DNA from: Heptranchias perlo
Lineage: Eukaryota
NCBI RefSeq assembly: GCF_035084215.1
Contig: NC_090340.1
Coordinates: forward strand, 2,852,001 to 2,916,000
Direction: 5' to 3'
DNA length: 64,000 nucleotides
Of the stretch, positions 9,878 through 61,724 are shown in pieces. Position 1 is the first letter of the stretch; every line of letters starts with the position of its first letter. Under the pieces are notes generated by a model. That model worked only from the letters and a program-made list of their open reading frames with translations. It had not been told where the DNA came from and did no database searches. Both the position numbers and the translations under genes were made by a program.

Positions 9878-11182
9878 CTGCAACAACGGAAAAGGGATTA
9901 GATTTTGGATAGGGTTGTCTTTTTTTTACATATCAGCGCTTCAGTGCTTTTACATAATCTGTAACTCATTCCCGCTATTTTTAAGTAACATATGTGGTTG
10001 CAATATTATATAAAATTATAAATATATGTTGCAGAATTATAGTACATTCTGAATTTCCAAACACCATTTTCTATAAAGTTGGAAACGGTTTTGTCACTTA
10101 GTACCGTTTAACTATATGACTGTTGACAAAAGTTTGGAATAAATCGGCAATCAATTACCTTTAAACACCTCTAAACCATATCTACACACGATGCACACAA
10201 AACTCTATTGCATTTCAGTTGCCGAATTGTACCAAGAGCTGTGCGGAGACTGGAGGGAGAGATAATTTCTCTCTGTTGTTTGCATAGAGCCGTTTATAAA
10301 ACGCGTTTACGACTTCGCAAATAAAACTCACAGAGTAAACCCCCTTCCCCCATTTATAGATTTTCCTGGTTAGACAATTATACGGATGTTTACTTTTTGA
10401 ACCCTAATAAAGCCTCTTGGAACGGGTAACATTGGAACATCATATTAAAATGAGTTTCCTGCTATTTGAGAAACAGGCAGCGAATTGCTCTAAATCAACT
10501 CCCCCTCATACCATTTCGACTTGCTTCGACATGACTACAATAAAGTTAACCTATATCTATTTTGCTATAATACTATGGCAAATATTTTACAATCAATTAG
10601 AAATCCCATATTTAAAGATATCCCGTGATTCTGCGATACTTTAGTAACACTTTCAAAGGAAAATAATCAGCTGTTCCAATGATATGTACGGGAATGTTTC
10701 TGTTTGATATCAAGGTGCAAATCCATCGCAACAATAAATGCCTCATTGACAAGCTGTATCGGATGAAAGTACAGTGGGGTATCGGAATAGAGGCTCTGGA
10801 TACGAATTAAGGAACTGAGAAACCAGGATTTTACTGTAATAAACCGATGAACCCTTGTTCAATATTAGATATGTTTAGATTATTCCACAAGTTACTAATA
10901 TTTTAAAATATGACAATTATTGTAGTAACTGATCATCAGCTCATCTGATAATACATAATCTGCAGTATGCCAGCTGTAGTCCGTGCTTTAACTGTGAAGT
11001 TCACCTTCTAAATGTACAATCCATTAATGATATGCACCAAGGTAAGTATATCTGCGTTAAAATAATCATGCGCCTGGACCATTTGTTTCGTATTTCCAGG
11101 GCTTCCGCAAAAGTTACTGCGAGATATCGGGTGAACTGCGGCAATTCTCCCCCATGGTCTGTAATTAGAAATTTTCCTACCT

Positions 11183-11292
11183 TTAAATGGGCGTTGATTT
11201 GAAATGGTCCACAATGATAATCGTCAGCAATAGAATCACCAGGAAGCACAATGCAAACCGAGGAATCAGAGAAACGTGAACATCAACAAAAT
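11183..11292 (-). CDS. Gene A: transmembrane exon with Arg and Asp and almost no tail (activating-type receptor)
   Basis: Not in the ORF track. Acceptor ttaattttag|, phase 1, reads DFVDVHVSLIPRFALCFLVILLLTIIIVDHFKSTPI*. TAA at 11183-11185 is followed by AG|gtagga (exon ends 11181). Aligns with the second TM exon at 52482-52596. Confidence 0.85.
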
Positions 11293-12312
11293 CTAAAATT
11301 AATGGAATACACACAAAGGATCTGATTATTATGGGTTCTATGCTGTAACTATAATTGCATGAAATAAATGAAAAGACGAATCAGGTACAGGAGTGAAATA
11401 AATTAATTCTGAATCGCCGTGTCACTACCTACATTAGGAGGGACATCTAGGATTTGGGTTTAGAACCAGCAATAAAACCGATTGTTTCTGTTCTAATTTC
11501 AGTTTCCTTTATATGAAACATTAACGACCGAGGTTATGTTAACTTTATTTAAGTTACTATCGAACGGTTCATCACTAGAAAGCTGTTCACATGAAATTCA
11601 CATTTTTTTTTACATAACGTCCGAAACTGCTCCATGTTCCGCTCTGTACCAGGTTCACTGGGTCGAAAACCAAATGTAAAATGTTCCAGAGAAAAAAGGT
11701 GTTTTCTCTTTAATTTTACCTCGGTGTAGCAGAAGAACCAATTAATATGCACCTGATTATCAGTTTATTCTTTGGAAGGCGAAATGGTTTATTTTGTTTT
11801 GTTTTTTCTGATGGAGTGAAGCATTCCAGATTAATCTGAGAAATAAAATTGCAGAGTAACTAATTTTATTTGGACGCATTTCACAGCGCTTAAAACCGGG
11901 GCGTCAACAATGTTGCTGGAATTAGCTAATTTTGAGTTATTCTGTGTAATTAATAAATCCACTTCGCAAATCGTTCTGTGTCGAGCTTTTTCTTTCCTTT
12001 CCACTGTCTGGCCCAGGATGTAGGTTTTGAGGAAGTTTTTTTATGTTGGAGAGAAACATAGCAAGGGAAATGATTTGCGAAGAGGATTTCCAGAGTGATC
12101 GAGCCTGTTGGGTGAATTATTTGCCATTGATCATAAAGCTCTGGGACAGCGGGCTACACAGCAGATCGGAGAGATGAGATCTGGGATTTCGGACTGGCGA
12201 AATTCTTGATGTGGCGTGGAGGAAAGCCACTGCTTTATAAGCAACGGCGTAAATTTTAATGTCAATTGGCCTAAAATACTTAATTGCGCCGCTAGGGATA
12301 TTTATTGCTCAC

Positions 12313-12624
12313 CTATTTTCCAATTCGGAGCTGTGAAGGTGACATTGGCTGGAATCTTGATCGTGGGGTGAGATACTTGACAGGTATAAACAGCCCCGTT
12401 CGGGACAGGTCGTGTGACTTTCAAAAAGCTGGAAAGTTCATACAGTCCTTCGGCATTCGGGTGCTTAATTGTCTTTATCCCGGTCGAAGTGCGAACGCTG
12501 TCCTTGTACCAACTTATGTTGATACTGTCTGGGTAAAAGGCAGCCGTTTTACACACAATAATTAAAATTCCGGATACATTACTCCCAGGTAATTCGGATT
12601 TAATACTCAACGGAATTGGAGGAA
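12313..12624 (-). CDS. Gene A: C1-set Ig domain exon
   Basis: Acceptor tttgttttgcag| and donor G|gtgagc; 312 nt, phase 1/1, in frame with the V exon. Translation VPPIPLSIK...IVCKTAAFYPDSINISWYKD...GLYELSSFLKV...YTCQVSHPT has the C1-set motifs CxxxxFYP, W and YTCxVxH. Confidence 0.92.
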
Positions 12625-12954
12625 CTGCAAAACAAATGAGAGACGGAGATGTTGCGACTCGTTTTTTTGTATAATTTAAGGTATTGAGGTAAGAATTTCT
12701 CCGTTATTATCTGCAATCACATAGTGCACCTGTCGGAAGATTTGTCTGTCCAGTGCTTCTTTTGCATATGGAAATAGCGATGTAAGAAAACTTCAAAAAC
12801 GTATTTAGGTATCTCTGTACATAGTGACCAGAGGCAATTTATCCCTATTATTCACCTTAAAGCGCTAAGAAATTGGCCTCGTTAACTTTATACAAGATAC
12901 ATCGAATATCTATTTAGAGAATCACTAGATCTGCATTATATACTGTATTGACCT

Positions 12955-13165
12955 ATTGTAAACAATTTTACAACACCAAGTTATAGTCCAACGATTTTAT
13001 TTTTAATCCCACAAGCTTTCGGGGACTTTCCCCTTCCTCAGGCGGAGGAAGGGGAAAGTCCCCGAAAGCTTGTGGGATTAAAAATAAAATCGTTGGACTA
13101 TAACTTGGTGTTGTAAAATTGTTTACAATTGTTAACCCCAGTCCATCACCGGCATCTCCACATCA
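12955..13165. mobile_element. Penelope-like inverted terminal-repeat insertion 1 with hammerhead ribozyme motif
   Basis: Perfect 85-bp inverted repeat (12955-13039 / 13045-13129), 5-nt loop, tail ...ccccagtccatcaccggcatctccacatca. TSD gtattgac(c/g)tat at 12945-12956 and 13167-13178. Minus strand reads CTGAGGA-A-GGGGA-AAG-TCCCC-GAAA-GCTT. Confidence 0.85.
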
Positions 13166-13210
13166 CGTATTGACGTATGGTATTGTTGATTATTATCTAT
13201 ATTTAAACTA

Positions 13211-13444
13211 TTGTAAGGAGTCGCACAACACCCGGTTATAGTCCAACAGCTTTATTTGAAATCACAAGCTTTCGGAGCTTTGGTCTTTCGTCAGGGATAT
13301 TTATGCTCACCTATTTTCCAATTCGGAGCTGTGAAGGTGACATTGGCTGACGAAGGAGCAAAGCTCCGAAAGCTTGTGATAACCTGGTGTTGTGCGACTC
13401 CTTACATTTGTCCACCCCAGTCCATCACCGTCATCTCCACATCA
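13211..13444. mobile_element. Penelope-like inverted terminal-repeat insertion 2 carrying a captured C1 exon fragment
   Basis: TSD tatttaaacta at 13200-13210 and 13445-13455. Inverted arms, with CTGACGA-A-GGAGC-AAA-GCTCC-GAAA-GCTT in the right arm and the same catca tail. Spacer 13293-13349 copies 12294-12351. Confidence 0.85.
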
Positions 13445-13616
13445 TATTTAAACTAATAAGGACCTTGTGAAACTTTGACACGAACATTTTGTTTCTTGTA
13501 AATATAATTTCCAATACATAATGAGGTAATTTTTCAGAAGAGAGTGAGAAATGTCATGATGTATTTTTAAAAAAGCATCGAGAGGAGGTTATCGTTGGAA
13601 AATCGTTTTATCCCTC

Positions 13617-13803
13617 GGGGGTTAGATCTTCATTATGTGCGATGATATAAAACGGGTGTTAGCGAATCGGCAGCCCGTTTTACATCTACCTCGATTTTAT
13701 TCATATTGACTTCAATGGAAATAAATTCCGGAGAGATGTAAAACAGACCGCCAATTCGCTACTATTCGTTTTACCCTAAGGCACAAAGTCAAGATCTATC
13801 CCC
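13617..13803. mobile_element. Palindromic MITE-like element
   Basis: Ends ggggttagatctt and aagatctatcccc; imperfect symmetry along its length around a central attgacttcaat. A related half copy lies at about 14861-14949. Confidence 0.65.
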
Positions 13804-13855
13804 AGTCTCTTCTTCAATCAGGAAATGAATGGAATTACATCTCAATTCACAATCC

Positions 13856-14860
13856 TCAGGGATCTGTGCTGGGTCCGCTGTTATTTGTTATTTATATTAA
13901 TGATTTGGATGAGAATTTAGGAGGCATGGTTAGTAAGTTTGCAGATGACACCAAGATTGGTGGCATTGTGGACAGTGAAGAAGGTTATCTGGGATTGCAA
14001 CGGGATCTTGATCAATGGGGCCAGTGGGCCGATGAATGGCAGATGGAGTTTAATTTAGATAAATGTGAGGTGATGCATTTTGGTAGATCGAATCGGGCCA
14101 GGACCTACTCCGTTAATGGTAGGGCGTTGGGGAGAGTTATAGAACAAAGAGATCTAGGAGTACAGATTCATAGCTCCTTGAAAGTGGAGTCACAGGTGGA
14201 TAGGGTGATGAAGAAGGCATTCGGCATGCTTGGTTTCATTGGTCAGAACATTGAATGCAGGAGTTGGGATGTCTTGTTGAAGTTGTACAGGGCATTGGTG
14301 AGGCCACACTTGGAGTACTGTGTACAGTTCTGGTCACCCTATTATAGAAAGGATATTATTAAACTAGAAAGAGTGCAGAAAAGATTTACTAGGATGCTAC
14401 CGGGACTTGATGGTTTGACTTACAGGGAGAGGTTAGACAGACTGGGACTTTTTTCCCTGGAGAGTAGGAGGTTAAGGGGTGATCTTATAGAAGTCTATAA
14501 AATAATGAGGGGCATAGATAAGGTCGATAGTCAAAATCTTTTCCCAAAGGTAGGGGAGTCTATATCGAGGGGGCATAGATTTAAGGTGAGAGGGGAGAGA
14601 TACAAAAGGGTCCAGAGGGGCAATTTTTTCACTCAAAGGATGGTGAGTGTCTGGAACGAGCTGTCAGAGGCAGTAGTAGAGGCGGGTACAATTTTGTCTT
14701 TTAAAAAGCATTTGGACAGTTACATGGGTAAGATGGGTATAGAGGGATATGGGCCAAGTGCAGGCAATTGGGACTAGCTTAGTGGTATAAACTGGGCGAC
14801 ATGGACATGTTGGGCCGAAGGGCCTGTTTCCATGTTGTAACTTCTATGATTCTATGATTC
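13856..14860 (+). mobile_element. CR1 LINE, 5'-truncated, open RT C-terminal ORF
   Basis: 303-aa ORF with KFADDTK; ctatgattct tail. Sits in the V-C1 intron, antisense to gene A. Confidence 0.93.
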
Positions 14861-15155
14861 TATAACTTTGGCGATAGTGCAAAACGGGCGATATGGGATC
14901 GGCTGCTTGTTATATATCTCGTCCGATCGTCTTTTCCATTGACTTCAATCATCAGCATACAATACGACACAGATAAATATTTACAATTATAATGTAAAGA
15001 ATTGAATGATTCAATATGATTGCTATTGAACCCATTGAAAAGCATAAAAGAAAACTTGCAAGCGGCCCAAACAAAATCATGTGAACATCTTGTCAAAAAT
15101 AATTCGCCACCGAACAATTTGTGGAACAATTATTTCAGCTAAACAATCCACTTAC

Positions 15156-15476
15156 CGTGGATAACAAGCTTTGACCCAGTTCCATTTGCAATCTGACCAT
15201 CCAGATGCTGCACTCCGCAGTAATAAACTCCAGAGTCCCCGGCGGTGACATTCAGGAACCGAAGAGAGGCCTCGTCTTTCTTTAAAGGAAGACATCGTAT
15301 TCTGCTGTCCAAACCTGACTGCAGAAACTCAGTTTCGCCGAGTTTCCACCAGTAAACATTTACATCGGAATTATCTGGAAAAACAGGGAACGCACAATAT
15401 AAAGTGATGTTTCCACCTGCGATCCTTTTGGCACGTTCAGGGGCTTGGGACACTCTGATCTGAATATCTGCAACAG
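15156..15476 (-). CDS. Gene A: V-set Ig domain exon, germline-joined VJ type (SIRP/NKp30-like)
   Basis: Acceptor tttctttctcacag| and donor G|gtaagt; 321 nt, phase 1/1. Translation (x)VADIQIRVSQAPERAKRIAGGNITLYCAFPVFPDNSDVNVYWWKLGETEF...DSGVYYCGVQHLDGQIANGTGSKLVIH has the B-strand Cys, C-strand Trp, DxGxYxC and a J-like GxG(S)xLxV motif in one exon. Confidence 0.92.
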
Positions 15477-17449
15477 CTGTGAGAAAGAAATGCAAACAAT
15501 GAATAAATATACCGTACGGCGCCAGAGGGGGAGAAGAGGAGGTCGAGAGTGCGAGATGGGAGGGCGAAAGAGAGGATTTGAATATATACCTGCATAAATA
15601 ATGCAGAGAAGCTTTATATGTCGAAAAACGGTGCCCAAAAACATTTTCAACCGTGGCAATTGACAATTCACTGAGAAGAAGTATTGGTTGTTTGGAAATA
15701 TTACTCGGAATCTATCCTCCAAGTTAAGTTCGTGCGTTAACTGCCTCACTTCTGGTGAAAGTTAACCAACGGCGCGGCAACCTGTCAGCCGCAACTCACA
15801 TGGTCAGTTAATTTGAATAATTATTCATCTCTGGCTGCACAGCTTTGGCCTTGCGTAGGGAGCGAACCTAATTGTCGATGAGAAGAAGGTTAAATTTAAA
15901 AAGATCTTCACACTTAAGGTTGAGTGGCCTCATATGGGCACACATATTGTTTCCGCGGTCATAAATATTTCAAATGCATTTAAAATATTTGTCATACTTT
16001 GCCAAGGCTGTGGGAGGGGAAGTGCCAGCGAAATCGAAACCAAATGTGTAGGCATGAAACAGATCACATGGACAAGTAATAGAAGAATACATCGCCAAAC
16101 CACCTGGGTGATGGCAGGTAAAATAGTCTTGGGGCTGTAGAGCGTGAGTCCAAGGAGAGATATCTCTTTATTCTTTCAGGGAACCCTTCCTATGGAACAT
16201 GGGTGCACTTTTCCTTGCAGTAGCCGATGACCAGGTTTAATAATGTCCGTACTACCCGCACTACCTGCGAATAGGTGCGTAGAACTCTAAGAAATGATCA
16301 AGTAGCAAATAGTATGACATGTTGGACGGAGAGCCCAGTACTGTATAACACAAAGTTTTACCTGTTTACCTTTTGCACAACTACTGTTTACCCATACCAA
16401 TACCTCACACAAGCTTATAGCTCCTGCCTTGTACCTCCTGCATATCCAAATCTGATCAGGGCTCACATTCAAGACACAGCAAACAATTGGAAGCCTTGAC
16501 ACATTCATATCTTCCAAATGCATTGCACCTCAAGTCACTGTAAACCGACCTAGCCTCATGATGTGTAGTCATGTACTGAGACCAGGCTGCCCTGTACATT
16601 CTGAGGTTTTGACTATTCTCCTTCAACCTCTAGCATCTAGTGACTACCTTTCTCCTTATCCGGCTAAGCTTTCCTGTTTAATGGTTGGTCTGCACCAGAC
16701 ATATAAATAATAGTTTTTAAATTCTTAAAGTTAACATTTGTTAACGAAAAACATGATATCCGTCACTTTTACATCCTTGTCCCTTTATATGCTGGAACAC
16801 AGGATCCCATTCCTAAATAAAAGTTAAAAGATACACGAAGACAGCGGTGTGATTTTCACCTAGGCCTTACTTTTGGACATCATGGAAAATATGTGCAACT
16901 TTTAATTCCACATTCGCACCTCCTTTTCCTGCAATGTTAATACACAGCTATTATCCGGGTGCTTTCTCATATCTCAGAACAAAGTGAGCCGTAGACCTGA
17001 ACCAATGGGTTACCTTCTGCTGCTTTACTCCCTCCTCCGTGTGTAAAGTTATTTAACATCGATTGAACATCGTCTAAGTCTATCGAAGTTAAGGTCAGCA
17101 ACGTAATGGAGTTGCAAAACAAGTATGAAACAAATCTCATCACTCTAGCTGATTATTAAAGAATCAATATGTGGTATCTTTTTCCTGTTAATATGCCATA
17201 GTTTTCTTTGAATACTTATAAAATAGCTTTATCTTCTCTTTCGTAACTTTGTAATTTGATTAAAAGTGACGCTTGCAAGATTGGCACAAGTTCCTGTGAG
17301 TAAGTTGTACTGTAACAATTTAGGTTAGGTTTGCATCAATCACACGTTGTTACTAAATACGCTATGAGTACATTGTGGCAGCATTTAGTGAGTTGCTATC
17401 ATTTTATTAATCACGGCACAACAACAGAGATAGCTCTCAATTAGATGCG

Positions 17450-19900: not shown

Positions 19901-20292
19901 GGGAAAGAGGGGCACAGACGGTAGATCTCTATGGGATCTACAGTATTTTCACTGAGAAAAGGTCAATGGTGAATTTCCTGACTACAATAAAATATATCAT
20001 GGATCAACATTTTTGAGCCAGTTTCGTTTCATAGTTTGTTACCCGGGTATCTGAGCTGGCAGCAATATTGGCCCAAACGTTCAAGAGCTGACAGAATACC
20101 GTACCTTCTTTAAAACAATGCAAACGCTAATTTCTGTTTGAACTTGCTATCGTAAACTTATTTTTTGTTAAGTATTCACCAACATATTTTTATATTTTCA
20201 CTGTTTTCAGTTAGAAGGAATGCAGCATTGAAGGATACAATCACATTGGTGCTTTGAGGGGGATTCCGCGAGGAATGAACACATTTTTAAAA

Positions 20293-43919: not shown

Positions 43920-44448
43920 TCTCTATTAGGGGAGCAGCGAACATCGTTAATTCATACATCTTGTTAATTCTTATATAGGGTCCCAATGTTTTATTACTTG
44001 TCGTCTTTTGAGTCAACAATTAAATGTTTTCTGGATGGGCCCAGCTAGTTGAGTACCTTTAATTCTAATAGTTTCTTTCGAATGATGATTTGCACCAATG
44101 GCTGATAAACTTTATTATCAGCATTTCTTTGAAATATATAACCATTAGGTAACAATATTCATGTACCATTGTGCATGAGATTAAACATATTCAATATTTG
44201 ATATTTAAAAAGAGTGTTTCTGTCCTTTGCATTTATTTGTTCAGAAGCCAGCAAGTGTTATCAATCTGTTTTAATGATTTCACCCCACAGATTAGCACCG
44301 ATTTATAAAATTAACTATTTAATTGTGCGTCATATGATGCAGGTAATGTATTTTCCACGATTATAAAATGCATCTTTGATCATTGTTGTTCACATAAGCC
44401 GGTTTTAATTTCCTTTCTTACCTTTAAACATTCATTCGATTGTCCTTG

Positions 44449-46195: not shown

Positions 46196-46199
46196 TCTT

Positions 46200-49480: not shown

Positions 49481-51106
49481 TTGGGGGCCACATGCTGCAT
49501 CATATATTAACTTGAGTCATGGTGATATCTTGGGTTGTCACAGGTATCAGCACGATATGATCTATCTTGGTCAATTTTGTCCGTAGGAAACAAAAGTTTG
49601 AGGATTCTATTGCGCACATTTGGTCACCTTGCTCATACCTGGATTTTGTGGTAATCACACAATATTCCGTTCGTCCCAGATAGACACTTTTCATCTGGTG
49701 GGTATCCCATGTCTGCTGTTGCACTGCATACGTAGCAGACTGGGCTTGAGACTACAGTTTTCAAAATATGCCTGGGAATGCAACATGTTTCATAGCCGGG
49801 GACTGGGGCCGACACATAGCCGTCCCTGGGAGAGGGTAACCAAACCTTTTGATCCAGTACTGCTAGTGGGTCGAAGTTCAACTTACCGCCCAGTCCTAAT
49901 GCTGCCATTGTTAATTATACAACCCATTGAATTCAAGGGAAATAAATATCTGGCGGTCTCCATATCAGGCCGCCAATTCGTTGAAAATGTCCCTCATTGG
50001 GGGTTATTTCAACCTTACCACGGTGTGCGGAACTGCCGCTATCAGATGCACCGTTTTGACTTCAACAGAAAATGAACCTCTGAATGGTTTACTTTTTAAT
50101 TATTGGGGTGCAAATTATTCTTCAACGACAGCGGAAAACGGACAATAAGGAATGGGTAGATCATTTTACACCCGCCAGAAATTCTTTTTAATAGAAAACA
50201 AAATCGCTCGAGTGTAAAGCGGCCCACCGCTGAAGACGTATTACACCTCCATTTGCCGAGTAATATGAAAGTTTGGATTTAATTTAGGCAACTGTAGATG
50301 ACAGCCTAAATGTAACAAACTAAAACTCTTAGAACCTGTTACTGCAAACAGAATATTAAATTATTCAAGAACACGGTAGCGATTTCCCAGTTATGAAATT
50401 GTTATTTTTAAAATAATAATATCAAATGCTGAATGCAAACTTTTGAGGTGGTAATGTGTAGGTTTTCTTGTTTACGAGACATTCAACTGGGTTTATACAG
50501 CTGGTTACAGAACTACTGAAAAGAAAAAAAAATATGTTCTTAAAGTAAAGTTGAAAAAACAACAAAAAAACACAGAAGTAAGCTTTTGCAAAATAGTAAA
50601 ATGCCCACCATAAAAAAAAACACAGTAGGCTACGTATTAAATATAACCCTTCGGCATAAGTAGTCATGTAACAATGTGCCAAAAATCAACAAGCTAGCAA
50701 AATGCTTTCCACAATGCGGAGCAAGTTAAAATCTACCTCAGGACATCTATATGTAATATGCCTTTGGTTGAGGTTTCAAATACATATACATATCTTGGTC
50801 AATTGTTGATATACAAGTTTAAATAATGGTTTAGCAACATAAAGTTGGCTTTTTGCACCTAGCCTTTCACGCTACTATTATAAATTCGACTGATTTCAGT
50901 ATATTTCCTTAGAATGAATTGTCTAATTTTCCAAGGCTGCCTCGAAGACCCAGGTAAAACCCCCCGTTTCTATTACGTTCAGGCTGGTGTACTATCCATG
51001 AAAAGGGAAAACCAGCTTCTGGAGAGTAAGATAACGTTCATCAGTTTGTGCTTCAAAACGGCATAACTGTACGTCCTGGTGAAATAGTTTATTTCCCAGC
51101 TATATG

Positions 51107-51209
51107 CTAAATTTCTTCCCTTGGGTTAATTGGCAGTAATAGTTCGCCGAATGTAACTTCCAGCAGTTCAGATCCACAGATCTCTCGTGTCCTGTTCCTT
51201 TTTACATAT
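51107..51209 (-). CDS. Short cytoplasmic terminal exon following the second TM exon
   Basis: Acceptor ctgatttttgtgtttag|; phase-2 join reads YVKRNRTREICGSELLEVTFGELLLPINPREEI*. AATAAA on the minus strand at 51088-51093. Confidence 0.6.
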
Positions 51210-52481
51210 CTAAACACAAAAATCAGAAGATTGTTTAGTTTATTTCTAATTATTTGATCACTTGACCACTATCATTGGTTCTTGATTTTGTTTTCAACCC
51301 AAATGCATTTCTTTACCGTCTCACTGTGAGATCCACCAACTTGGATCGAAGTTATGGCGGAAGATCGGAAGAGTTCTTCGCCGAACATTCTGGCGTTTTA
51401 TATATAACCGATAACAAAGTGAAGCCGCTAATTCCTAGGTTTTCGATTTGGCTCAAAAAAAAATAGTTTCAAATGGTAAATTTTTCACCGGCTTCGCCGC
51501 AACTTCGACCAATACCACAGGACAACGTCGTATCAATCTATCATTCTGTTCTTTTCCAGGAACGGAAGTTAGGGAGATGACCCCCCAGCAGGAATTCTGC
51601 CTTCATGATTATATTTGTTGTACAAGAACCAGAAGATGAGCGATGGGTGCACAAATTTGCGACTTACCAAGTGCCTCCCGCTCGAACTCCAGCACGAGAT
51701 CCGGCAAAGTCCCGGAGAAATGGTTTAACCTGAAAACTGCAATTTACCTGTTCATCCGGAGCTTCCCAGGAAGTGACAATAATTTTCTCACTAAACCTGT
51801 TTAATCAAAAGGGGCCTGAAATTCTATGGGGATTCTCCCGCTTTCCTTCCCTAACATTTGTGGGAAACTGTGGGGCATCTAAGAAAAAATGGCTTAAACG
51901 GTTGAAATGGCGATTTGCGCCCTTCCAGATGCGTTTCTACCTATCTAGTATCGAAGTTAGGCGGGACATCGGTGGCATGCTGGACAGTTTCGGGCCTTGG
52001 ATGTTAAATGCTCCTGTAATCGAAATTAAGGCTCTAAATCTGTTCCTGAAGAACGGAATTTCGTGGGTGCTCCCCGACATCCCGTGTACCTTTGGCGGTA
52101 GATTAAAGGGATTTCGGGTAAAGACCCAAACGGATAAAATCTCCAATGCATACTAATTGGCCATTGTTTCCGCTAAAGTTAAAGTGGGAGATTAGGAGAA
52201 TCGGGCAGAAAGTCACCTCTTCTTCCACTTGGGTATTTCTATATAGTTCTTCATCCACTTCGTTTAAAGGAAATTTGTACAACTTATGACACCAGCAGAC
52301 CGAATTGTCGGGGATGCTCCCCATTCACCGCCGCAACTTCGATAAAGAACCACTTTAACGGTTTTTCCGGTGAACTCCGACGGAAGATTACCCAGGACAA
52401 GGGGAAGATATTCACTCACTCTTATTTTAGATAATTCTATATTAAAATAATAATTGCTTGGAAAACGAAATGAAATCTTAC

Positions 52482-52596
52482 CTTTCGAAAGGAATCGTTT
52501 TACAGTAATCCACAATCATGGTGGACAGCATCAGAATTAGGAAAACAGCCGATATAAAGCGGGATGTCAGACCAATTCGGGAAACATTATCGGAGG
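52482..52596 (-). CDS. Second charged transmembrane exon (Arg...Asp), paralogous to the gene A TM exon
   Basis: Acceptor ttttatttacatcttgcag|, donor AG|gtaaga; 115 nt, phase 1/2. Reads (x)SDNVSRIGLTSRFISAVFLILMLSTMIVDYCKTIPFER. Confidence 0.8.
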
Positions 52597-52679
52597 CTGC
52601 AAGATGTAAATAAAACAGAAATGCAGTGTTTTGTATTCGACTGAGTGTTCTCATAGTAACATTACATAAATAAACGAAG

Positions 52680-52729
52680 GAATGAATGAATGCTTGAATG
52701 GATAAATGCATGAATGAATGAATGAATGA
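52680..52729. repeat. (TGAA)n imperfect microsatellite
   Basis: gaatgaatgaatg... units just upstream (minus strand) of the second TM exon acceptor. Confidence 0.8.
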
Positions 52730-52977
52730 TTGCATTAATTAGACAGGGACAGGGCGCAAATTTCTGTTTCATTGCTATAGCATTGCTAACTTGATTTTTA
52801 TTTACAGGTAGGGTGACAACGATCATTTCAGCGGCTTCAGGTAAGGGTAAATTTATAAGTCTGAAGAGAAAAGTCAAGGCTGTGGAGCTGAGTAACGATT
52901 TGGGTAAAAACAAGTAGAATGTGTCAGGAAGGGACAGAAAGTTTAACAAAGGTAATAGGTCATTAGTGACTTTTTTT

Positions 52978-55250
52978 GGATTCGTTCATGGGATATGGGC
53001 GACGCTGGCGAGGCTGGCATTTATTGCCGATCCCTAATTGCCCTTGAGAAGGTGGTGGTGAGCCGCCTTCTTGAACCGCTGCAGTCCGTGTGGTGAAGGT
53101 TCTCCCACAGTGCTGTTAGGAAGGGAGTTCCAGGATTTTGACCCAGCGACGATGAAGGAACGGCGATATATTTCCAAGTTGGGTGTTGTGTGACTTGGAG
53201 GGGAACGTGCAGTTGGTGTTGTTCCCATGTACACGCTGCTCTTGTCCTTTTAGGTGGTAGAGGTCGCCGGTTTGGGAGGTGCTGTCGAAGAAGCCTTGGC
53301 GAGTCGCTGCAGTGCATCCTGTGGATGGTACACACTGCAGCCACAGTACACCGGTGGTGAAGGGAGTGAATGTTTAGGTTGGTGGAAGGGGTGCCAATCA
53401 AGCGGGCTGCTTTGTCCTGGATGGTGTCGAGCTTCTTGAGTGTTGTTGGAGCTGCACTCATGCAGGCAAGTGGAGAGTATTCCATCACACTCCTGACTTG
53501 TGCCTTGTAGATGGTGGAAAGGCATTGGGGAGTCAGGAGGTGAGTCACTCGCCGCAGAATACCCAATCTCTGTCCTGCTCTTGTAGCCACAGTATTTATA
53601 TGGCTGGTCCAGTTAAGTTTCTGGTCAATGGTGACCACCGGGATGTTGATGGTGGGGGATTCGGCGATGGTAATGCCGTTGAATGTCAAGGGGAGGTGGT
53701 TAGACTGTCTCTGGCTGGAGATAGTCAATGTGTACCACTTGTCTGGCGTAAATGTTGCTTGCCACTTATGAGCCCAAGCCTGGATGTTGTCCAGGTCTTG
53801 TTGCATGCGGGCTCGGACTGCTTCATTATTTGAGGGGTTATGAATGGAACTGAACACTGTGCAATCATCAGCGAACATCCCCATGTCTGACCTTATGATG
53901 AAGGGAAGGTCATTGATGAAGCAGCTGAAGATGGTTAGGCCTGGGACACTGTCCTGAGGAACTCCTGCAGCAATGTCATGGGGCTGAGAAGATTGACCTC
54001 CAACAACCACTACCATCTTCCTTTGTGCTAGGTATGACTCCAGCCACTGGAGAGTTTCCCCCTTGATTCCCATTGACTTCAATTTTACTCTGGCTCCTTG
54101 GTGCCACACTCGGTCAAAGACAGCCTTAATGTCAAGGGCAGTCATTCTCATCTCACCTCTGGAATTCAGCTCTTTTATCCATGTTTGGACCAATGCTGTA
54201 ATGAGGCCTGGAGCCGAGTGGTCCTGGCGGAACCCAAACTGAGCATCAGTGAGCATGTTATTGGTGAGTAAGTGCCGCTTCATAGCATTGTCGACGACAC
54301 CTTCCATCACTTTTCTGATGATTGAGAGTAGACTGATGGGGAGATAATTGGCCGGATTGGATTTGTCCTGCTTTTTCGGACAGGACATACCTGGGCAATT
54401 TTCACATTGTCGCGTAGATGCCAGTGTTGCATCTGTATTGGAACAGTTTGGCTAGAGGCACAGCTAGTTCTGGAGCACAAGTCTTCAGCACTACAGCTGG
54501 GATGTTGTCGGGGCCCATAGCCTTTGCTGTATCCGTGCACTCACCCGTTTCTTGATATGACATGGAGTGAATCGAATTTGCTGAAGACTGGCTTCTGTGA
54601 TGTTGGAGATATCGGGAGCAGGACGAAATGGATCATTCACTCTGCACTTCTGGCTGAAGACAGTTGCAAACGCTTCAGCCTTGTCGTTTGCACTCACGTG
54701 ATGGACTCCGCCATCATTGAGGATAGGGATGTGTGCAGAGCATCCTCCTCCCGTTAGTTGTTTAATTATCCACCACCATTCACGACTGTATGTGACAGGA
54801 CTGCAGAACTTTGATCTGATCCGTTGGTTGTGGAATCGCTTAGCTCTGTCTATAGCATGTTACGTCCGCTGTTTAGCATGCATGTAGGACTGAATTGTAG
54901 CTTCACCAGGTTGGTACCTCATTTTTAAATATGCTAGGTGCTGCTCCTGGCTTGTTCTTCTACATTCTTCATTGAACCAGGGTTGATCCCCTGGCTTGTT
55001 GGTAATGTTAGATTGAGGAATATGCCGGGCCATGAGGTTACAGATTCTGCTGGAATACAATTCTGCTGCTGCTGATGGCCCCAAATGCCGCATGGATGCC
55101 AAGTTTTGAGCTGCTGGATCTGTTCTGAATCTATCCCATTTAGCACGGTGGTAGTGCCACACAACATGTTGGATGGTGACCTCAGTGCGAAGACGAGATT
55201 TCATCTCCACGAGGACTGTGTGGTGGTCGCTCCTACCAATACTGACTAAG
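52978..55250 (-). mobile_element. L2/CR1-group LINE, second family, about 2.3 kb
   Basis: 455-aa ORF with QFGFR, LDIKAVFDRVWH, MFADDCTV; upstream SDHHTV endonuclease motif. Confidence 0.92.
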
Positions 55251-55259
55251 GTCATATCA

Positions 55260-58025
55260 AGGAAAAATATTGAAACGTTAAAATTAAAGGCGCTCTATCT
55301 GAATGTTCTATATATTTGTAAGAAGAGAGATGAATGACGGGCACAAATAGGTAAAATGTGCTAGATTTAGTAGCCATTACTGAGGGGGAGATATTTGCAG
55401 GGAGACCAAGGTTTGAAAATAAATATTCTAGGGTACTTGACTTTTGGAAAAGATCGGCAAAATGGAAATGAGCGGGGATAGCCCTGATAATAAAGGACGA
55501 GATAAAGACAGTAATGAGGAAGGAACTTTGCTCAGAAAATCAGAAGGTAGAATGAGTATAGGTGGAGGTAAGAAATAACAGGGGGTAGAAAGCACTGCTG
55601 AGAGTAGTTTGAAGGCCCCCGAACAATAGTTATAGCTTTGGTCAGGGTGTAAATCAGGAAATTAGAGAAGCATGTAACAAGGGTAATGCAATAATCGTGG
55701 GGGACTTTAATCATCAGCTATACTGGACAAACTCAATTGGAGAAGTTAAATTGAAGCATGAATTCATGGAATGCATTCGAGACAGTTTTCTAGAACAATA
55801 TGTTGAGGAACCAACTAGGGAACAGGGTATTTTAGATGTAGCGTTGTGTAATGAGATTGGGTTAATTATTAAATTATAGTTAAGTACCCTCTGCTGAATG
55901 AATGGTCATAATATTATCGAATTTTGTGTTCAGTTTGAGAGTGATGCAGTTAAGTCCGAAACTAGGGTCTTAAAGTTAAACAAAGCCAATTACATAGGTA
56001 TGAGGGGCGATTTGGATAAAATAGGTTGGGAAATTAGATTAAAATATATAATAGCAGTTAAGGAATGGCAAACATTTAAATAAATAACTCATAATTCTCA
56101 ATGAATATACATTCTCTGGAGAAAAAAAATCTCCACGGGAATGTGATCCAACCATGGCTAAGTAAAGGAGTTAAGGATAGTATTTGATTTAAAAAAAGAG
56201 GCTTGAAATGTTACAAAAAGAGCAGTCAACCTAAGGGCTGGGATCATTTTAGAAATCAGCAAAGGATGACCAAGAAATTGATGAAGAGGGAGAAAAATGA
56301 ATATGAGAGTAAATTAGCAAGAAATATAAAAACAGATTGTACCAGTTTCTACAATTATGCAAAAAGGAAGAGATTAGCGAAAGTGAACATGAGTCCCTTA
56401 GAGGCAGAGACAGAAGAAATTATAATGGGGAATCAGAACATGGTAGAGACGTTAAACAAGTATTTTGAATCTGTCTTCACGGTAGAAGACAAAAAAAAAC
56501 ATACGAAATAGTGGGGAACCAAGGGTCTAAAGAGAGGGAGGAAATACAAGTAATAAAGATTAGTAAAGAAAAAGTGCAGTAGAAATTAATGGGACTAAAA
56601 GCCAACAAATACCTTGGACCCGAAGGCCTACATCTTCGGGTTTTAAGAGAGGTGGCTGCAGAGATAGTGGATGCAGTGGTTTTGATCTTCTAGAATCCTC
56701 TTGAATCTAGAACGGTCCCAATGGATTGGAAGATGGCAAATGTAATTCTGCCATTCAAGAAAGGAGGGAGGGAGAAAATACGAAATTACAGGACAGGTAG
56801 CCAGTCATCAGTAGTGGGGAAAATGCTGGAATCTATTGTTAAGGACGTAGTAACAGGACACTTAGAAAATAATAATATGATTAGGCAGAGTCAACATGAT
56901 TTTATGAAAGGGAAATCGTGTTTGAAAAATCTATTAGACTTATTTTGAGGGTGCAACTAGCAGGGTAGCTAATGGGGAATTAGTGGCAGTAGTATATTTG
57001 GATTTTCAAAAGTCATTCGAAAAATTGCCACACAAATGGTTGTTATACAAGATTAGTGTTCATTGGATTGGGGGTAATACATTAGAATGGTGTGAAGATT
57101 GGTTATCTGACAGAAAACAGAGAGTAGGTATAAACGGTTCATTTTTCGGTTGGCAGGTTGTAACTAGTTGGGTGCTACAAGGATCAGTGCTTGGGCCTCA
57201 GCTGTTTACAATACATATCATTGACTTAGATGAGGTGATCGAGTGTAATATATTCAAGCTTGCTGACGATACATAGCTAGGTGGGAAAATAAGCTGTGAG
57301 GAGGACACAAAGGAGCTGCTCCGGGGTATAGACAGGTTAAGTGAATGGGCGAGAAGGTGGCAGGTGGAGTATAATGTGGGAAAATTATCCACTTTGGTAG
57401 GAAGAATACAAAAGCAGAATATGTTTTAAAAGGCGAGAGATTCAGAATTGTTGCTGGTTAGAGGGATTTGGATTGCCTTGTACACGAATCACAACGCAGT
57501 TAACATGCAGATACAGCAAGCAAATAAGAAGGCAAATGGAATGTTAGCCTTTATTGCAAGTGGGTTGGAGTAGAAGAGTTAGGAGGCATTGCTGCAATTA
57601 CATAGGGCTGTGGTGAGACCACCCCTGGAGTACTGTGTATAGATTTGGCATCCTTACCTACGGACGGATATACTTGCCTTAAAGGGGGTGCAACGGAGGT
57701 TCATTAGATTGATTCCTTGGATGATAGGGTTGTCCTATGAGGAGAGATTATGTAGAATATGCCTATAGTCTCTGTAGTTTAGAAAAATGAGAAGTGGTCT
57801 CATTGAAATGGATCAAATTCTTAGAGGCTGTTTCCCCTGGCTGGAGAATCTAGAACTAGGGATCATAGACTCAAGATAAGGGGTCAGCCATTGAGGACCG
57901 AGATGAGGAAAATTTCTTCATTCAGACGATTGTGAATCTTTGGAATTCTCTACCCAGAGGGCTGCCGATGCTCAGTCGTTGAGTATATTCAAGGTCGATA
58001 GATTTTTAGACACTAAGGGAATCTG
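55260..58025 (+). mobile_element. Long decayed CR1 LINE
   Basis: [35 protein letters not shown] in broken ORFs; 3' UTR missing. Confidence 0.9.
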
Positions 58026-58083
58026 GTGGTAACTTTTGTACAGGCAACTGGGACAGCCCTCTGTGGTAGAGAATTCCAAAGAT

Positions 58084-58308
58084 TCACAATCCTCTGAGTG
58101 CAGAAATTTTCCTCATCTCTGCATAGGTAAACACATTAGGTGATTTTTGTTTCGGTGTATATGGCCTCCGCTGTTCTTTTTGGGTTTTCATTGGTAACTG
58201 CGCATATTCGGAACTTTTGGTCTTGCGTTTAGGCTTTTCTGTTTTCTTGGTTTCAACCAATTCCAGCGCAGTATATGTCAGACTGTTCTCTGCTGTCCTT
58301 TGCTTTGT
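58084..58308 (-). CDS. Gene B: ITIM-bearing cytoplasmic exon (SIRP-alpha-like tail, part 2)
   Basis: Not in the ORF track (no start codon). Acceptor cgttttacag|, phase 0, reads TKQRTAENSLTYTALELVETKKTEKPKRKTKSSEYAQLPMKTQKEQRRPYTPKQKSPNVFTYAEMRKISALRGL*. Contains ITIMs LTYTAL and SEYAQL plus FTYAEM. The last 11 codons and the stop are CR1-derived. Confidence 0.82.
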   Translation of the reverse strand, partial: TKQRTAENSLTYTALELVETKKTEKPKRKTKSSEYAQLPMKTQKEQRRPYTPKQKSPNVFTYAEMRKISALRGL

Positions 58309-58485
58309 CTGTAAAACGATCGTTGGGGAATGTCATTAGTACATGGCCAGTGTCAGTTTGTTCACTAGGCAAATGAACCATCAAAAATAGGAAATCCAAC
58401 GCGCAATGCGATTTAAATATACCAGAGTATCCAAATAATATAGTTACTCCGCGACCATGGGTGACCCGTTTTTTATGTTGCCTAC

Positions 58486-58586
58486 TCGGGAATACACAGT
58501 CCTCTCCTCTTGATACTTGTCTCTTACAGTTTTCTTTGACCTGGTCAAATTTAATGCAGCGTAAGTCGCTATCTTATTCACGATCG
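58486..58586 (-). CDS. Gene B: cytoplasmic exon with tyrosine motifs (SIRP-alpha-like tail, part 1)
   Basis: Acceptor atctatgcag|, donor CGA|gtaggc; 101 nt, phase 1/0. Reads IVNKIATYAALNLTRSKKTVRDKYQEERTVYSR; TYAALNL..KK parallels the SIRP-alpha TYADLNL..KK motif. Confidence 0.75.
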
Positions 58587-59034
58587 CTGCATAGATCGCA
58601 AAGTAATATGTTGCAATCAAAAATCTTAGGCATAATGTCTGACCTGCCGTTACACCGGGATGTACGAACAAACCATTTCCTTTTTTTAACCCAATGCTTG
58701 TGATTAAATTGACATTCAACAAGGCTATCAAATAGGGCAGAAACCGCAATTCGGTTCACAACAAAAAAGGTCACATACTTCTTGTTAAACGTATGAGCGG
58801 CCAGACCGGCAAGGGCATTTTAATAGGATAGGTCTGTAGCAGAAACCACAGTTTAACGCTGTGACTGCTGCAGATGATTGCTACACGCTCTTAACCACTT
58901 ATCTTGTTAACCTGCTTCATGGGTTGTAATTTCGTGTTGTTATTAACTAAGAAACCAAATGGCAAGAACATCAAAGGTCAACAGTCAAACAACTATTAAC
59001 ATTTCCTTTGCATTGATCGAAATTTTATCTATCG

Positions 59035-59370
59035 AGGCTGTTTCCCCTGGCTGGAGAGTCTGGAACTAGATATCATAGTCTCAAGATAAGGGGTCGACTA
59101 TTTAGGACCGAAATAAGGAAACATTTCTTCACTCAGAGCGTTGTGAATCTTTGGAATTCTTTACCCCAGACGGCTGTCGATGTTCAGTCGACGATTATAT
59201 TCAAGACTGAGATCGATGGATATATAGACACTAGGCAATCAAGAGATATGGGGACAGGGTGTGAAAGTGGCGTTGAAGTGAAAGATCAGCCATGATCTTA
59301 TTGAATGGCGGAGCAGGCTCGAGCAGCCGAATGGCCGACACCTGCTCCTATTTCTTATGTTCTTATGTTC
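59035..59370 (+). mobile_element. CR1 3' fragment
   Basis: gaggctgtttcccctggctggagagtc... through tail atttcttatgttcttatgttct. Confidence 0.85.
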
Positions 59371-60169
59371 TCTCCACATCACTGAAGTCGTACATTTCTA
59401 GTATAATTCTGGTAAACCTCCTTTGTATCCTGTCCAAGGCCTTGGCGACCTTCCTAAAAAGGGATCCCCATAATTCAACACAATAACTAAGTTCTAACCA
59501 GTGATTATTAAAGGATTCGTTTAGGTTCAGAATCACGAGGAAATTAAGAGTTTTTATTGATAAAGAAGATAGGAATTTCTGAGAAAATATTAAATTGGAA
59601 TCTTAGAATAGAGTAATGTAACATATCTGAATGCGTCCTGGCCAGGGCCGAGAAATAACGACAAGATACATGAGGACTACGTGGTGATTCAAAACCAGGC
59701 AGAACAAATTTCCGGTAATGGGAACTTAACAATAGTTGGGCAACACAAAATGTTGCTGGGAAGTTGTTATTTAGATCAAGTGGGGTTATTGGCACTGACG
59801 TCAAAATTGGAATAATTCAGTCTGCTTGAACTTTGAAATAATGATGGAAAGGATCCTTGCCAATTTACTTATATGTGTGACAAAGGAACTGCCGCGCCTT
59901 GACAAAAAGAAAATTATGTGATACTTAGGTACTCCAGGGCTGCTTTGGTACTTTGGGTGAAGCAACTTCACCGCAGATTCGAAATTATACTTTGGGGCGC
60001 ATCTAAACGCAATGCATGCGGCCTGGTCTTAGCATTCACGCTAAACTTTCGCTTTCTGCACTGGTGTTTGAGCCTTGAACTGGTCCGACGCCAAGCAGGG
60101 TGACACTCTCGTTATCACCGCTCTTTGCTATAGGGTCAGATTTGGTCCTGACTCCAATGTAAGGGTACA

Positions 60170-61715
60170 TTTCCAATATGCCTTGTAGATGGTGGAGAGA
60201 CTTTGGGGAATCAAGAGTTAAGCCCTTCCCCGCAGAATAACCAGCGTCTGACCTGCTCTGGTAGCCACCATATTTATGTAACTGTTCCAGTTGAGTTTCT
60301 AGTCAATGGTGCCCCCAAGGATGTTGATAATGGGGAAATCAGCTATGGCAATCTATTGAATGTCAAGGGGTGGCGCTTAGACTCTATTTTGTTGGAGGTG
60401 GTCGTTGCCTGGCAATTGACTGCCACGATTGTTGTTTGCCACTTAGCAGCCCATCTTCCTACATTCTGGTGTGGACTGCTTCAATATCTGAGCCATTGTT
60501 AATGCAATTGAACACTGTGCAATCATCAGCAAACCGTCCCCCTTCTGAATTTATGATGGAAGGGAAGGCTATTGAGGAAGCAGCTACCGATCATTAGTCT
60601 AGGACGCTGCATTGAGCAACTCTTACAGCGATGTCCTGGGGCTTAGGCGATTGGCTCGAACAAACAAAATCATCTTCCTTTGTGCGAGGTATGGCTCCTG
60701 CCACTGCAGAGTTTACCCTCTGATCCCCATTGGCTTCATTTTTACCAGGGATCCTTGGTGCCACACACCCTTGAATGTTGCATTGATATCAAATGCAGTC
60801 ACCCTCACCTCGCATCGGGAATTCAGCTCTTTTGTCCATGTTTGGACCAAGGCTGTAATGAGTTCTGAAGCTGAGTGCTCCTGGCGGAACCCAAACTGAA
60901 CATCGGTGAGCAAGCTACTGGTGAGTAAGTGCTGCTTGATAGCACTATTGACGACTCCTTACTTCACATTGCTGATGATTAAGTGCAGGCTGATAGGACG
61001 GTAATTGGGTGGGTTAGATTGTCCTGCTATTCGGGGACAGAACATGCCTGGGCAATTTTCCACATTGTCGGGAAAATGCCGGTGTTATTGTTTTGCTGGA
61101 ACTGCTTGGCTAGAGGCATGGCTAGTTCTGGATCACAGGTCTTCAGCACTGCAGCCGGGATCTTGTCGGAGCCCATAGCCTTTGCTGCATCCAGTGCACT
61201 GAGCCGTTTCTTGATATCACATGGAATGAATCAAATTGGTTGGAGACTAAAATAAGTGAAATTTGAGACCTCCCAAGGAGGCCGTGAAGGATCATCCATT
61301 CAGTACTTCTGGCTAAAGATTGATGTGAACGCTTCAATCTTGTCTTTTGCACTCACGTGCTGGACTCTTTCAATATTCAGGTTGGGGGTGTTCACGGAGC
61401 TTCCTCCTCCCGTTAGTTGTTTAATGGTCCACCACCATTCACGACTAGATGTGGCAGGACTTCAGACTTTTGAACTGAACCGTTGGTTGTGGGATCGCTC
61501 TGTCAAAAGCATGCAGCTTCCGCCGCTTTAGCTTGCATGTAGTCCTGTGTTGTAGCTTCACCAGGTTGGCACCTCTTTTACAGGTACGTCTGGTGCTGCT
61601 CCTGGCATGCTCTTCTACACTTCTCATTTAAAATGAGTTGGTGAACTGACAAAGATGGTGATGGAGGAGAGAGGGATATGCTGGGCCATGAGGTTCAGAT
61701 TGTGGTTGAATACAA
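60170..61715 (-). mobile_element. Older copy of the second LINE family
   Basis: QFGFRQEHSASELITALVQTW; collinear with, but more diverged than, 52978-55250. Confidence 0.85.
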
Positions 61716-61724
61716 TTCAGATGC

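What the first reader, a model, noticed from the sequence alone, without database searches (positions are those of the whole stretch)
51088..58586. ITIM-tail exons followed directly by an activating-type TM exon: one gene with two signalling ends, or a deletion scar
Seen: on the minus strand the ITIM exons (58586-58084) are followed after about 5.5 kb, nearly all LINE, by an intact phase-1 Arg/Asp TM exon and a short-tail exon with AATAAA. I find no leader or Ig exon between them. Established: paired receptors such as SIRP-alpha/beta normally use separate inhibitory and activating genes. Inference: either one ectodomain (outside this window) is spliced to alternative inhibitory or activating 3' ends, making a paired receptor in one gene, or the TM exon was orphaned by deletion of its Ig exons.
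Basis: partly seen in the sequence, partly recalled or inferred. Interest (0 to 1): 0.75.

Follow-up and report, generated by a model that had tools for sequence, protein, structure and literature searches.

The report
Deletion scar in shark receptor cluster
In a shark immune-receptor gene cluster, the frameshifted 'off-switch' tail of one gene sits beside a lone 'on-switch' membrane exon, across a rearranged retrotransposon; this is likely ordinary debris from a deletion between neighbouring genes rather than one gene with two signalling ends.

Summary
The exons are real. Two ITIM-tail exons, about 5.5 kb that is 96% LINE, an open Arg/Asp TM exon and a short-tail exon lie in that order, with no V or C1 between. 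The 'intact ITIM path' is not: a spliced contig of a close homolog shows that each ITIM exon here lacks one base. Exon A (101 nt instead of 102) reads Arg-Ser-stop; exon B is frameshifted, and its 58084 end is read-through into LINE. Thirteen bases past the ancestral stop lies a rearrangement junction: a CR1-like LINE lacking the 3' ~135 nt kept by 6 of 6 other copies, plus a 70-nt inverted self-copy. No annotated family gene pairs both tails (0 of 11 isoform sets). Best reading: a deletion scar with an orphan TM exon in a birth-and-death cluster of VJ-C1 paired receptors (0.62). A hybrid activating gene (0.17) or a true two-ended gene (0.10) stays possible, because the ectodomain lies outside the window and no transcript of this locus was available. 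The scan noted this family, and another orphan TM exon, earlier on other DNA of this genome.

The parts
58486..58586 (-). Cytoplasmic exon A of an inhibitory VJ-C1 receptor gene; 101 nt (homolog 102), one base missing near 58580, so phase-0 reading stops at codon 3 (TGA 58580-58578). AG and GT intact.
   Evidence: 71% aa identity to P0013; homolog contigs in X3 and X4 cover 58488-58579, and their 5' loose end fixes the phase; length and translation
58309..58485 (-). 177-nt GT-AG intron between exons A and B
   Evidence: a contig of run X4 skips 177 nt at this place; splice sites
58136..58308 (-). Cytoplasmic exon B, coding part to the ancestral stop (TAA 58138-58136). Holds both canonical ITIMs (LTYTAL, SEYAQL); 1-nt deletion at about 58178, after the ITIMs; present frame reads on to a stop at 58086-58084 inside LINE sequence
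   Evidence: 73% to P0013; tblastn shows the frame change; homolog contig has one extra base at 58178
58053..58122 (-). 70-nt inverted copy of the adjacent LINE's own sequence (57900-57960), followed by about 21 nt of filler (58032-58052): rearrangement junction 13 nt after the ancestral stop
   Evidence: 55-nt arms 95% complementary; 62/66 identical to the adjacent copy versus 78-89% to six other copies
52836..58031 (+). CR1-like LINE (RT and endonuclease remnants), cut short at its 3' end by about 135 nt; 5' limit near 52836 inferred from repeat contigs
   Evidence: Pfam RVT_1 and Exo_endo_phos_2; self-BLAST; 6 of 6 other window copies run on past this point; repeat contigs over 52836-52970
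52972..55242 (-). Second, younger LINE nested in the first, flanked by a 5-nt target-site duplication (52967-52971 / 55243-55247)
   Evidence: RVT_1 E 9e-25; 91-92% to other window copies; duplication
52597..52835 (-). Unique 239-nt stretch before the TM exon, likely the remnant of a C1-TM intron; holds a TTCA repeat and an AATAAA (52802-52797) of unknown role
   Evidence: weak alignment to the C1-TM intron of the downstream gene (14 of 200 shuffles reach it alone; 0 of 200 with the exon included)
52482..52596 (-). Activating-type TM exon (115 nt, phase 1 in, phase 2 out; conserved Arg and Asp), open, splice sites intact, no ectodomain between it and the ITIM exons
   Evidence: least hydrophobic of 16 family TMs of this class
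51088..51209 (-). Candidate short-tail / 3' exon (33 codons, stop 51107-51105, AATAAA 51093-51088); no significant match to 8 family tails tested, so its use is unproven
   Evidence: sequence; shuffle test, best 51 of 1000
19999..20259 (-). Decayed V exon of the same family (stops, frameshifts)
   Evidence: tblastn E 1.6e-6 with P0013, 15 family hits; DNA alignment 1 of 300 shuffles
16929..17128 (-). Probable decayed C1 exon belonging with the V remnant
   Evidence: DNA alignment to the intact C1, score 41 versus shuffle maximum 40 (0 of 100; marginal); not found by tblastn
11181..15644 (-). Intact paralog: leader 15644-15590, VJ-type V 15476-15156, C1 12624-12313, Arg/Asp TM exon with stop 11292-11181; shows the normal layout of an activating-type gene
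   Evidence: Pfam V-set and C1-set; homologs P0005-P0007; splice sites

Best explanation
This is likely a deletion scar: the frameshifted tail exons of an inhibitory-type VJ-C1 receptor gene now abut the TM exon of what was likely a separate activating-type neighbour, whose promoter, leader, V and C1 exons were likely deleted. Shown: the exon order; the 1-nt losses in both ITIM exons; the absence of V and C1 in the gap; and a junction of 3'-truncated LINE, filler and inverted self-copy 13 nt after the ancestral stop. Inferred steps: (1) a CR1-like LINE inserted into the C1-TM intron of the activating gene, about 240 nt before the TM exon; (2) a later break-and-repair event with a template switch joined that LINE, minus its 3' end, to the 3' UTR of the upstream ITIM gene and removed everything between; (3) the ITIM gene's exon-A-containing mRNA now carries a stop 93 nt before the last junction, a likely nonsense-mediated-decay target (established 50-55-nt rule), so that gene is a pseudogene or at best yields an exon-A-skipped form; (4) the TM exon is an orphan whose open frame needs no selection to explain. 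The intact family members likely work as paired receptors: ITIM tails would recruit SHP-type phosphatases, and Arg-bearing TMs would pair with an ITAM adaptor such as FcR-gamma (by analogy, untested in sharks).
For: Homolog contig in run X4 splices exon A to B and has one more base at 58178; its 5' loose end puts exon A in phase 0, where the window reads R-S-stop. tblastn shows the same frame change against P0013. The CR1 copy lacks the 3' ~135 nt kept by 6 of 6 other copies, and the fragment beside exon B is an inverted copy of this same element (62/66 versus 78-89% to others). The downstream intact gene needs about 4.35 kb from ATG to TM exon, whereas only 239 nt of unique DNA precede this TM exon. 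Other decayed family exons lie in the window. 0 of 11 RefSeq multi-isoform sets and 0 of 9 pairs with identical C1 among 112 parsed family proteins combine an ITIM tail with a charged TM. The closest homolog P0013 carries no isoform label, and the ray homolog's two isoforms both use a neutral TM. A 115-nt exon stays free of stops, frameshifts and splice loss in 17-76% of neutral simulations at 3-12% divergence. This TM is the least hydrophobic of 16 (2.28 versus 2.50-3.62). Lone-TM-exon pseudogenes are reported in bowfin DICP clusters (bioRxiv 10.1101/2021.06.11.448072, passages).
Against: The junction proves a local rearrangement but not its size: a clean insertion into the ITIM gene's 3' UTR plus a small deletion would look similar, and an AATAAA lies 34 nt beyond the LINE's 5' end (about 0.2 expected by chance; my estimate). 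The TM exon, both its splice sites, Arg and Asp, and a downstream exon with AATAAA are all intact. TM versus the paralogous TM gives dN/dS about 0.23, but dS is saturated and this covers both lineages. Both canonical ITIMs sit in exon B before the frameshift, and exon-A skipping occurs in the family (P0236; P0008 lacks the exon). The phase of this gene's own upstream exon was not seen. The family sample is partial, and isoforms with different tails can fall in clusters not retrieved.
Confidence: 0.62

Rival explanations
1. Hybrid activating gene (tail swap in progress). The same deletion happened, but the upstream gene's V-C1 now splices over its damaged neutral-TM/ITIM exons to the Arg/Asp TM exon, so the locus makes an activating receptor with a formerly inhibitory ectodomain.
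For: The TM exon is phase 1, like a C1 donor; exon, splice sites and a 3' exon with AATAAA are intact while the ITIM path is damaged. Tail swaps exist in the family: P0011 (Heterodontus) has a charged TM on an ectodomain whose C1 is 82% identical to ITIM-bearing P0008. Earlier scan notes propose such hybrids at other loci (e1-9827369, e1-9812614; not tested here).
Against: It needs a splice of more than 11 kb past a neutral TM exon, three tail exons and at least three AATAAA hexamers (57555, 53025, 52802). The TM is the least hydrophobic of 16, and the tail exon has no detected family homolog. No transcript was seen.
Confidence: 0.17
2. One gene with two working signalling ends: alternative last-exon choice gives an inhibitory form (neutral TM, exon A skipped, exon B ITIMs) and an activating form (Arg/Asp TM).
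For: The exon order and phases allow it. Both canonical ITIMs precede the exon B frameshift, and exon-A skipping is annotated in a paralog (P0236). No ectodomain lies between the two ends.
Against: Both homolog contigs include exon A (2 of 2), and exon A here has intact splice sites and a premature stop. The ITIM gene's 3' UTR is cut by a rearrangement. 0 of 11 isoform sets show both tails, and the closest homologs show only neutral TMs.
Confidence: 0.1
3. Assembly artefact: a mis-join inside LINE sequence collapsed two places, and/or the 1-nt losses are consensus errors.
For: The junction lies in repeat DNA of a many-copy cluster; the exon B loss is next to an A-run; no DNA run of this individual covering the unique parts was available.
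Against: Long frames elsewhere are open (476-aa RT frame in the nested LINE, 350-aa and 307-aa LINE frames, intact V and C1), so indel errors are not common. The exon A loss is not in a homopolymer. The inverted fragment differs from its source at 4 of 66 sites, which suggests some age.
Confidence: 0.08

Closest known systems
SIRP family (SIRP-alpha inhibitory / SIRP-beta activating)
   Same: V plus C1-set ectodomains, multi-tyrosine inhibitory tails and charged-TM short-tailed sister genes; NCBI names many family members 'SHPS-1-like'. SIRP features from PMC12975943 (passages).
   Different: One C1, not two; the charged TM here has Arg plus Asp (SIRP-beta uses Lys with DAP12; the residue is recalled, the DAP12 link is); CD47 binding and orthology untested; at this locus the parts are broken.
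Xenopus XFL / mammalian LILRA, NKp46, GPVI, OSCAR 'NxxR' TM module (FcR-gamma-associating)
   Same: Arg at the N-terminal edge of the TM, short tail, and activating and inhibitory genes intermingled in a birth-and-death cluster with gene fragments (PMC2413239, passages).
   Different: Different ectodomains. The conserved family Arg is not in an NxxR context in most members (this exon has an NxxR six residues earlier). There is an added Asp at the cytoplasmic edge.
Bowfin DICP lone-TM pseudogenes (dicp15p, dicp17p)
   Same: Paired-receptor cluster members reduced to a single TM exon (bioRxiv 10.1101/2021.06.11.448072, passages).
   Different: An unrelated Ig family in a ray-finned fish; no junction anatomy described in the passages seen.
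SIGLEC14/5 fusion-deletion
   Same: A deletion between adjacent activating and inhibitory paired-receptor genes that removes one partner (PMC4042635, passages).
   Different: That event is homologous recombination giving a clean fusion; here the breakpoints lie in a 3' UTR and a LINE, leaving damaged tail exons in place.
UrIg / NKp30 / PRARP non-rearranging VJ genes
   Same: Unsplit VJ-type V exon with a GxGT-like G strand; UrIg is VJ-C1 (PMC10751288, PMC11599192, passages).
   Different: A find in the UrIg paper PMC12227049 gave no ITIM, SIRP or 'inhibitory'; orthology and MHC linkage were not tested.

Membership tests
Cartilaginous-fish VJ-C1 paired receptor family (P0005-P0013 group) | Tail exons homologous to inhibitory members | tested here: met
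   71% and 73% aa identity to P0013; spliced homolog contig 87-91% identical
Cartilaginous-fish VJ-C1 paired receptor family (P0005-P0013 group) | TM exon homologous to activating-type members (Arg, Asp/Glu 18 residues later) | tested here: met
   47% to P0007; DNA match to the window's second TM exon above 200 of 200 shuffles
Cartilaginous-fish VJ-C1 paired receptor family (P0005-P0013 group) | Own leader, V and C1 exons upstream of the charged TM exon | tested here: not met
   no V or C1 in 58083-52597, nor any ectodomain, TM or first tail exon of the ITIM gene in 58590-64000; a short leader alone could be missed
Functional ITIM receptor | (S/I/V/L)xYxx(I/V/L) motifs present | tested here: met
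   LTYTAL and SEYAQL in exon B; the exon A motifs are not canonical (consensus as)
Functional ITIM receptor | Motifs reached in frame from the TM | tested here: not met
   with exon A included, phase-0 reading stops at codon 3; an exon-A-skipped form could not be tested
One gene with alternative inhibitory and activating 3' ends | The same C1 exon spliced to both ends in transcripts | not testable with these tools
   ectodomain outside the window, no genome held, no RNA holder of this locus listed
One gene with alternative inhibitory and activating 3' ends | Both isoform types annotated for one gene among homologs | tested here: not met
   0 of 11 RefSeq isoform sets and 0 of 2 Callorhinchus UniRef sets; partial sample
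SIRP | One V plus two C1-set domains | tested here: not met
   P0013, P0011 and the window's intact paralog have one V and one C1
SIRP | CD47 binding / orthology by synteny or tree | not tested
   no synteny data available; no tree built
NxxR FcR-gamma-associating TM module | NxxR at the TM N-terminus and adaptor association | tested here: inconclusive
   this exon has N-V-S-R six residues before the family-conserved Arg; most family TMs lack NxxR at that Arg; association untested

The most novel reading that the evidence does not exclude
The locus is a paired receptor inside one gene, or a snapshot of an inhibitory-to-activating switch: one VJ-C1 ectodomain spliced either to a neutral TM with an exon-A-skipped, two-ITIM tail or, more than 11 kb further on, to a captured Arg/Asp TM exon from a deleted neighbour. 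That would show tail swaps in this family arising by splicing capture before the old tail is lost.
Probability: 0.2. Interest if true: 0.65.

Novelty: new member of a known kind. Interest (0 to 1): 0.24.

Why it matters
As read here it is ordinary birth-and-death debris. Its value is as a well-resolved breakpoint, showing how LINE-associated deletions bring inhibitory and activating modules together in a shark paired-receptor cluster. The family itself was not found described in my eight library searches, but the scan has noted it repeatedly in this genome, so this locus adds little to it. If a C1-to-52596 splice were found, it would show how activating partners arise from inhibitory genes without first duplicating the ectodomain, and one RT-PCR could test that.

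Tried and rejected
No genome is held for the window, so sequence beyond 64000 and synteny could not be read. The sequencing-run search used a LINE-rich stretch: no RNA holder listed, four runs of one sample with shares 0.06-0.07. Laying them on 49500-59500 at 90% was swamped by LINE contigs, and the bin holding the TM exon's 3' end had no cover; this blank is no evidence on expression. The second lay went to the ITIM exons, so the TM exon was never laid at 80%. The protein search with exon B alone found nothing (45 candidates). The upstream first tail exon was sought by motif (0 matches at 3 mismatches) and by tblastn: not in the window. Introns and flanks downstream of the two TM exons do not align above shuffles (19/60, 16/100, 26/60). 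Sliding identity of the CR1 copy to seven other copies showed no clear subfamily switch, so recombination between two LINE copies is not supported, and no convincing target-site duplication flanks the whole block. A 'phase 1' exon A and an ITSM-like TVYSRV read-through were rejected once the homolog splice was seen. Substitution pattern against the homolog contig: 14 nonsynonymous to 5 synonymous in exon B (pN/pS 0.79; p=0.59 against neutral) and 3 to 0 in exon A, using only the 22 of 32 differences listed; too weak and not lineage-specific to count. Two regex 'activating' flags (P0138, P0185) were false and ignored; 7 of 119 proteins had no parsable C1 end and were left out. No fold or complex prediction was run, as it would not decide the question. 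Look-ups of earlier findings by place 'near' and by sequence gave nothing.
Full report
Setting. The window is LINE-rich vertebrate DNA; all named homologs of its Ig exons come from sharks, rays and a chimaera. No genome is held, so nothing beyond 64000 could be read. Besides the finding, the minus strand carries an intact gene: leader 15644-15590, VJ-type V 15476-15156, C1 12624-12313 and an Arg/Asp TM exon with stop at 11292-11181. It also carries a decayed V at 20259-19999 and a probable decayed C1 at about 17128-16929 (marginal). Homolog searches returned a family of V-C1-TM proteins of two kinds: neutral TM with tyrosine-motif tails (e.g. P0008, P0013) and short-tailed with Arg and Asp/Glu in the TM (e.g. 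P0005-P0007, P0011).

Observation. The order reported is correct, and the pieces are family exons far above chance: exon A 71% and exon B 73% to P0013, the TM exon 47% to P0007, and the TM exon matches the window's second TM exon above all 200 shuffles. The gap 58083-52597 is 96% LINE. It holds a CR1-like element on the plus strand (about 52836-58031) with a younger LINE nested in it between a 5-nt target-site duplication. tblastn with 119 family proteins finds no V or C1 in it, although it detects the decayed V elsewhere.

A 418-nt contig of run X4 and a 168-nt contig of X3 (2 of 4 runs, one sample) lie on these exons at 87-91% identity, and their residues match P0013, so they come from a close homolog, not this allele. 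The X4 contig skips the 177-nt intron 58485-58309, fixing the end of exon A at 58486 and the start of exon B at 58308. It has one more base at 58178; in that frame the window reads on to a stop at 58138-58136 that matches the end of P0013. The end at 58084 is therefore read-through into LINE. The contigs' 5' loose end continues the P0013 sequence and places the start of exon A at the window's AG (58586) in phase 0. Family proteins that join the first tail exon straight to exon B (P0008, P0236) agree with phase 0. The homolog exon is 102 nt and the window's is 101 nt, reading Arg-Ser-stop. By the established 50-55-nt rule that mRNA is a likely decay target. Against over-reading this: both canonical ITIMs are in exon B before the frameshift, so skipping exon A would keep them, and this gene's own upstream exon was not seen.

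Part 2: the junction is a scar. Thirteen bases after the ancestral stop begins a 70-nt inverted copy of the neighbouring LINE's own sequence (arms 95% complementary; 62/66 to this copy, 78-89% to six others). About 21 nt of filler follows, then the LINE, cut about 135 nt short of the 3' end that 6 of 6 other window copies keep. Retrotransposition normally keeps the 3' end and truncates the 5' end (established), so this pattern points to a later break repaired with a template switch (inference). On the far side only 239 nt of unique DNA precede the TM exon, weakly similar to the C1-TM intron of the intact paralog (14 of 200 shuffles alone). The intact paralog needs about 4.35 kb from ATG to TM exon. 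The simplest history is a deletion from the ITIM gene's 3' UTR into a LINE in the C1-TM intron of the next, activating-type gene. The size of the deletion is not shown. An AATAAA at 52802 leaves room for a small deletion within an older, already compact layout.

Is the TM exon alive? It is open, with good splice sites, Arg and Asp. This is weak evidence: such an exon survives intact in 17-76% of neutral simulations at 3-12% divergence. It is the least hydrophobic of 16 family TMs of this class and is 47% identical to its nearest homolog, against 82% for the intact paralog's TM. The proposed tail exon matches none of 8 family tails tested. On the other side, dN/dS against the paralog is about 0.23, but with saturated dS and over both lineages.

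Precedent for two ends in one gene within the family: none found. Of 112 parsed proteins, nine pairs had identical C1 regions and all shared a TM class or differed by exon skipping; the closest neutral-versus-charged pairs were 84% and 82%. Eleven RefSeq multi-isoform sets and two Callorhinchus UniRef sets showed skipping and alternative splice sites but never a switch between ITIM tail and charged TM. P0013 has no isoform label, and its ray homolog's two isoforms are both neutral. The sample is partial. P0011, a charged TM on a P0008-like ectodomain, shows that tail swaps do occur between genes, which keeps the hybrid reading alive.

Literature. Eight library searches found no paper on this shark family and none describing alternative ITIM versus charged-TM exons in one gene. 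The library lacks most subscription journals, and no supplements were read (bioRxiv supplements are closed and could bear on the bowfin case). Seen as passages only: PMC2413239 (Arg/NxxR TMs associate with FcR-gamma; intermingled activating and inhibitory genes and fragments), bioRxiv 10.1101/2021.06.11.448072 (bowfin pseudogenes consisting of a single TM exon), PMC4042635 (SIGLEC14/5 fusion-deletion), PMC12975943 (SIRP architecture), PMC10751288, PMC11599192 and PMC12227049 (non-rearranging VJ genes), and PMC7042247, PMC13212111, PMC5856374, PMC2832619 and PMC2195720 (paired receptors as separate genes, loss of ITIMs by splicing). PMC5078064 (NKp44 splice variants with or without ITIM) was seen only as a search listing. 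The labels 'CR1-like', the SIRP-beta lysine and the decay rule are from my own knowledge.

Verdict. Real exons, ordinary cause: likely a deletion scar with an orphan activating-type TM exon beside a decaying inhibitory gene (0.62). Rivals are a hybrid activating gene (0.17), a working two-ended gene (0.10) and an assembly artefact (0.08). The family works like SIRP-type paired receptors by architecture (inferred) but fails the SIRP domain test (one C1). The scan's earlier notes on this genome already describe the family, hybrids and another orphan TM exon; they are unreviewed and were used as leads only.

Noticed in passing
window 15644-11181 (-): Intact non-rearranging leader-VJ-C1-TM gene of the activating type, with Arg/Asp TM and a stop inside the TM exon; nearest homologs P0005-P0007 (62-67% in V). 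Its V is equally close (68%) to inhibitory P0013.
   Followed up: partly
window 20259-19999 and about 17128-16929 (-): Decayed V exon and probable decayed C1 exon of another family copy just upstream of the intact gene. A bamboo-shark gene model (P0207) likewise has a stray C1 piece directly upstream of the homologous gene, hinting at a conserved dead neighbour.
   Followed up: partly
window 13349-13293 and 12351-12294: A 58-nt copy (98% identical) of the 3' end of the intact gene's C1 exon, including its donor region, sits in the V-C1 intron inside a small repeat element.
   Followed up: no
window 12955-13129: 175-nt near-perfect palindromic element (98% self-complementary) in the V-C1 intron, related to short repeats at 36144-36231 and 43782-43920; MITE-like.
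   Followed up: no
window 13854-14862 and 31296-32306: Young LINE copies 96.5% identical with long open RT frames; one lies in the V-C1 intron of the intact gene.
   Followed up: no
P0011 (XP_067905015) versus P0008/P0012/P0170: One ectodomain lineage carries an ITIM tail in three sharks and a charged TM in Heterodontus, a likely tail swap between genes.
   Followed up: partly
window 46130-46800: Long CT-rich tandem repeat.
   Followed up: no
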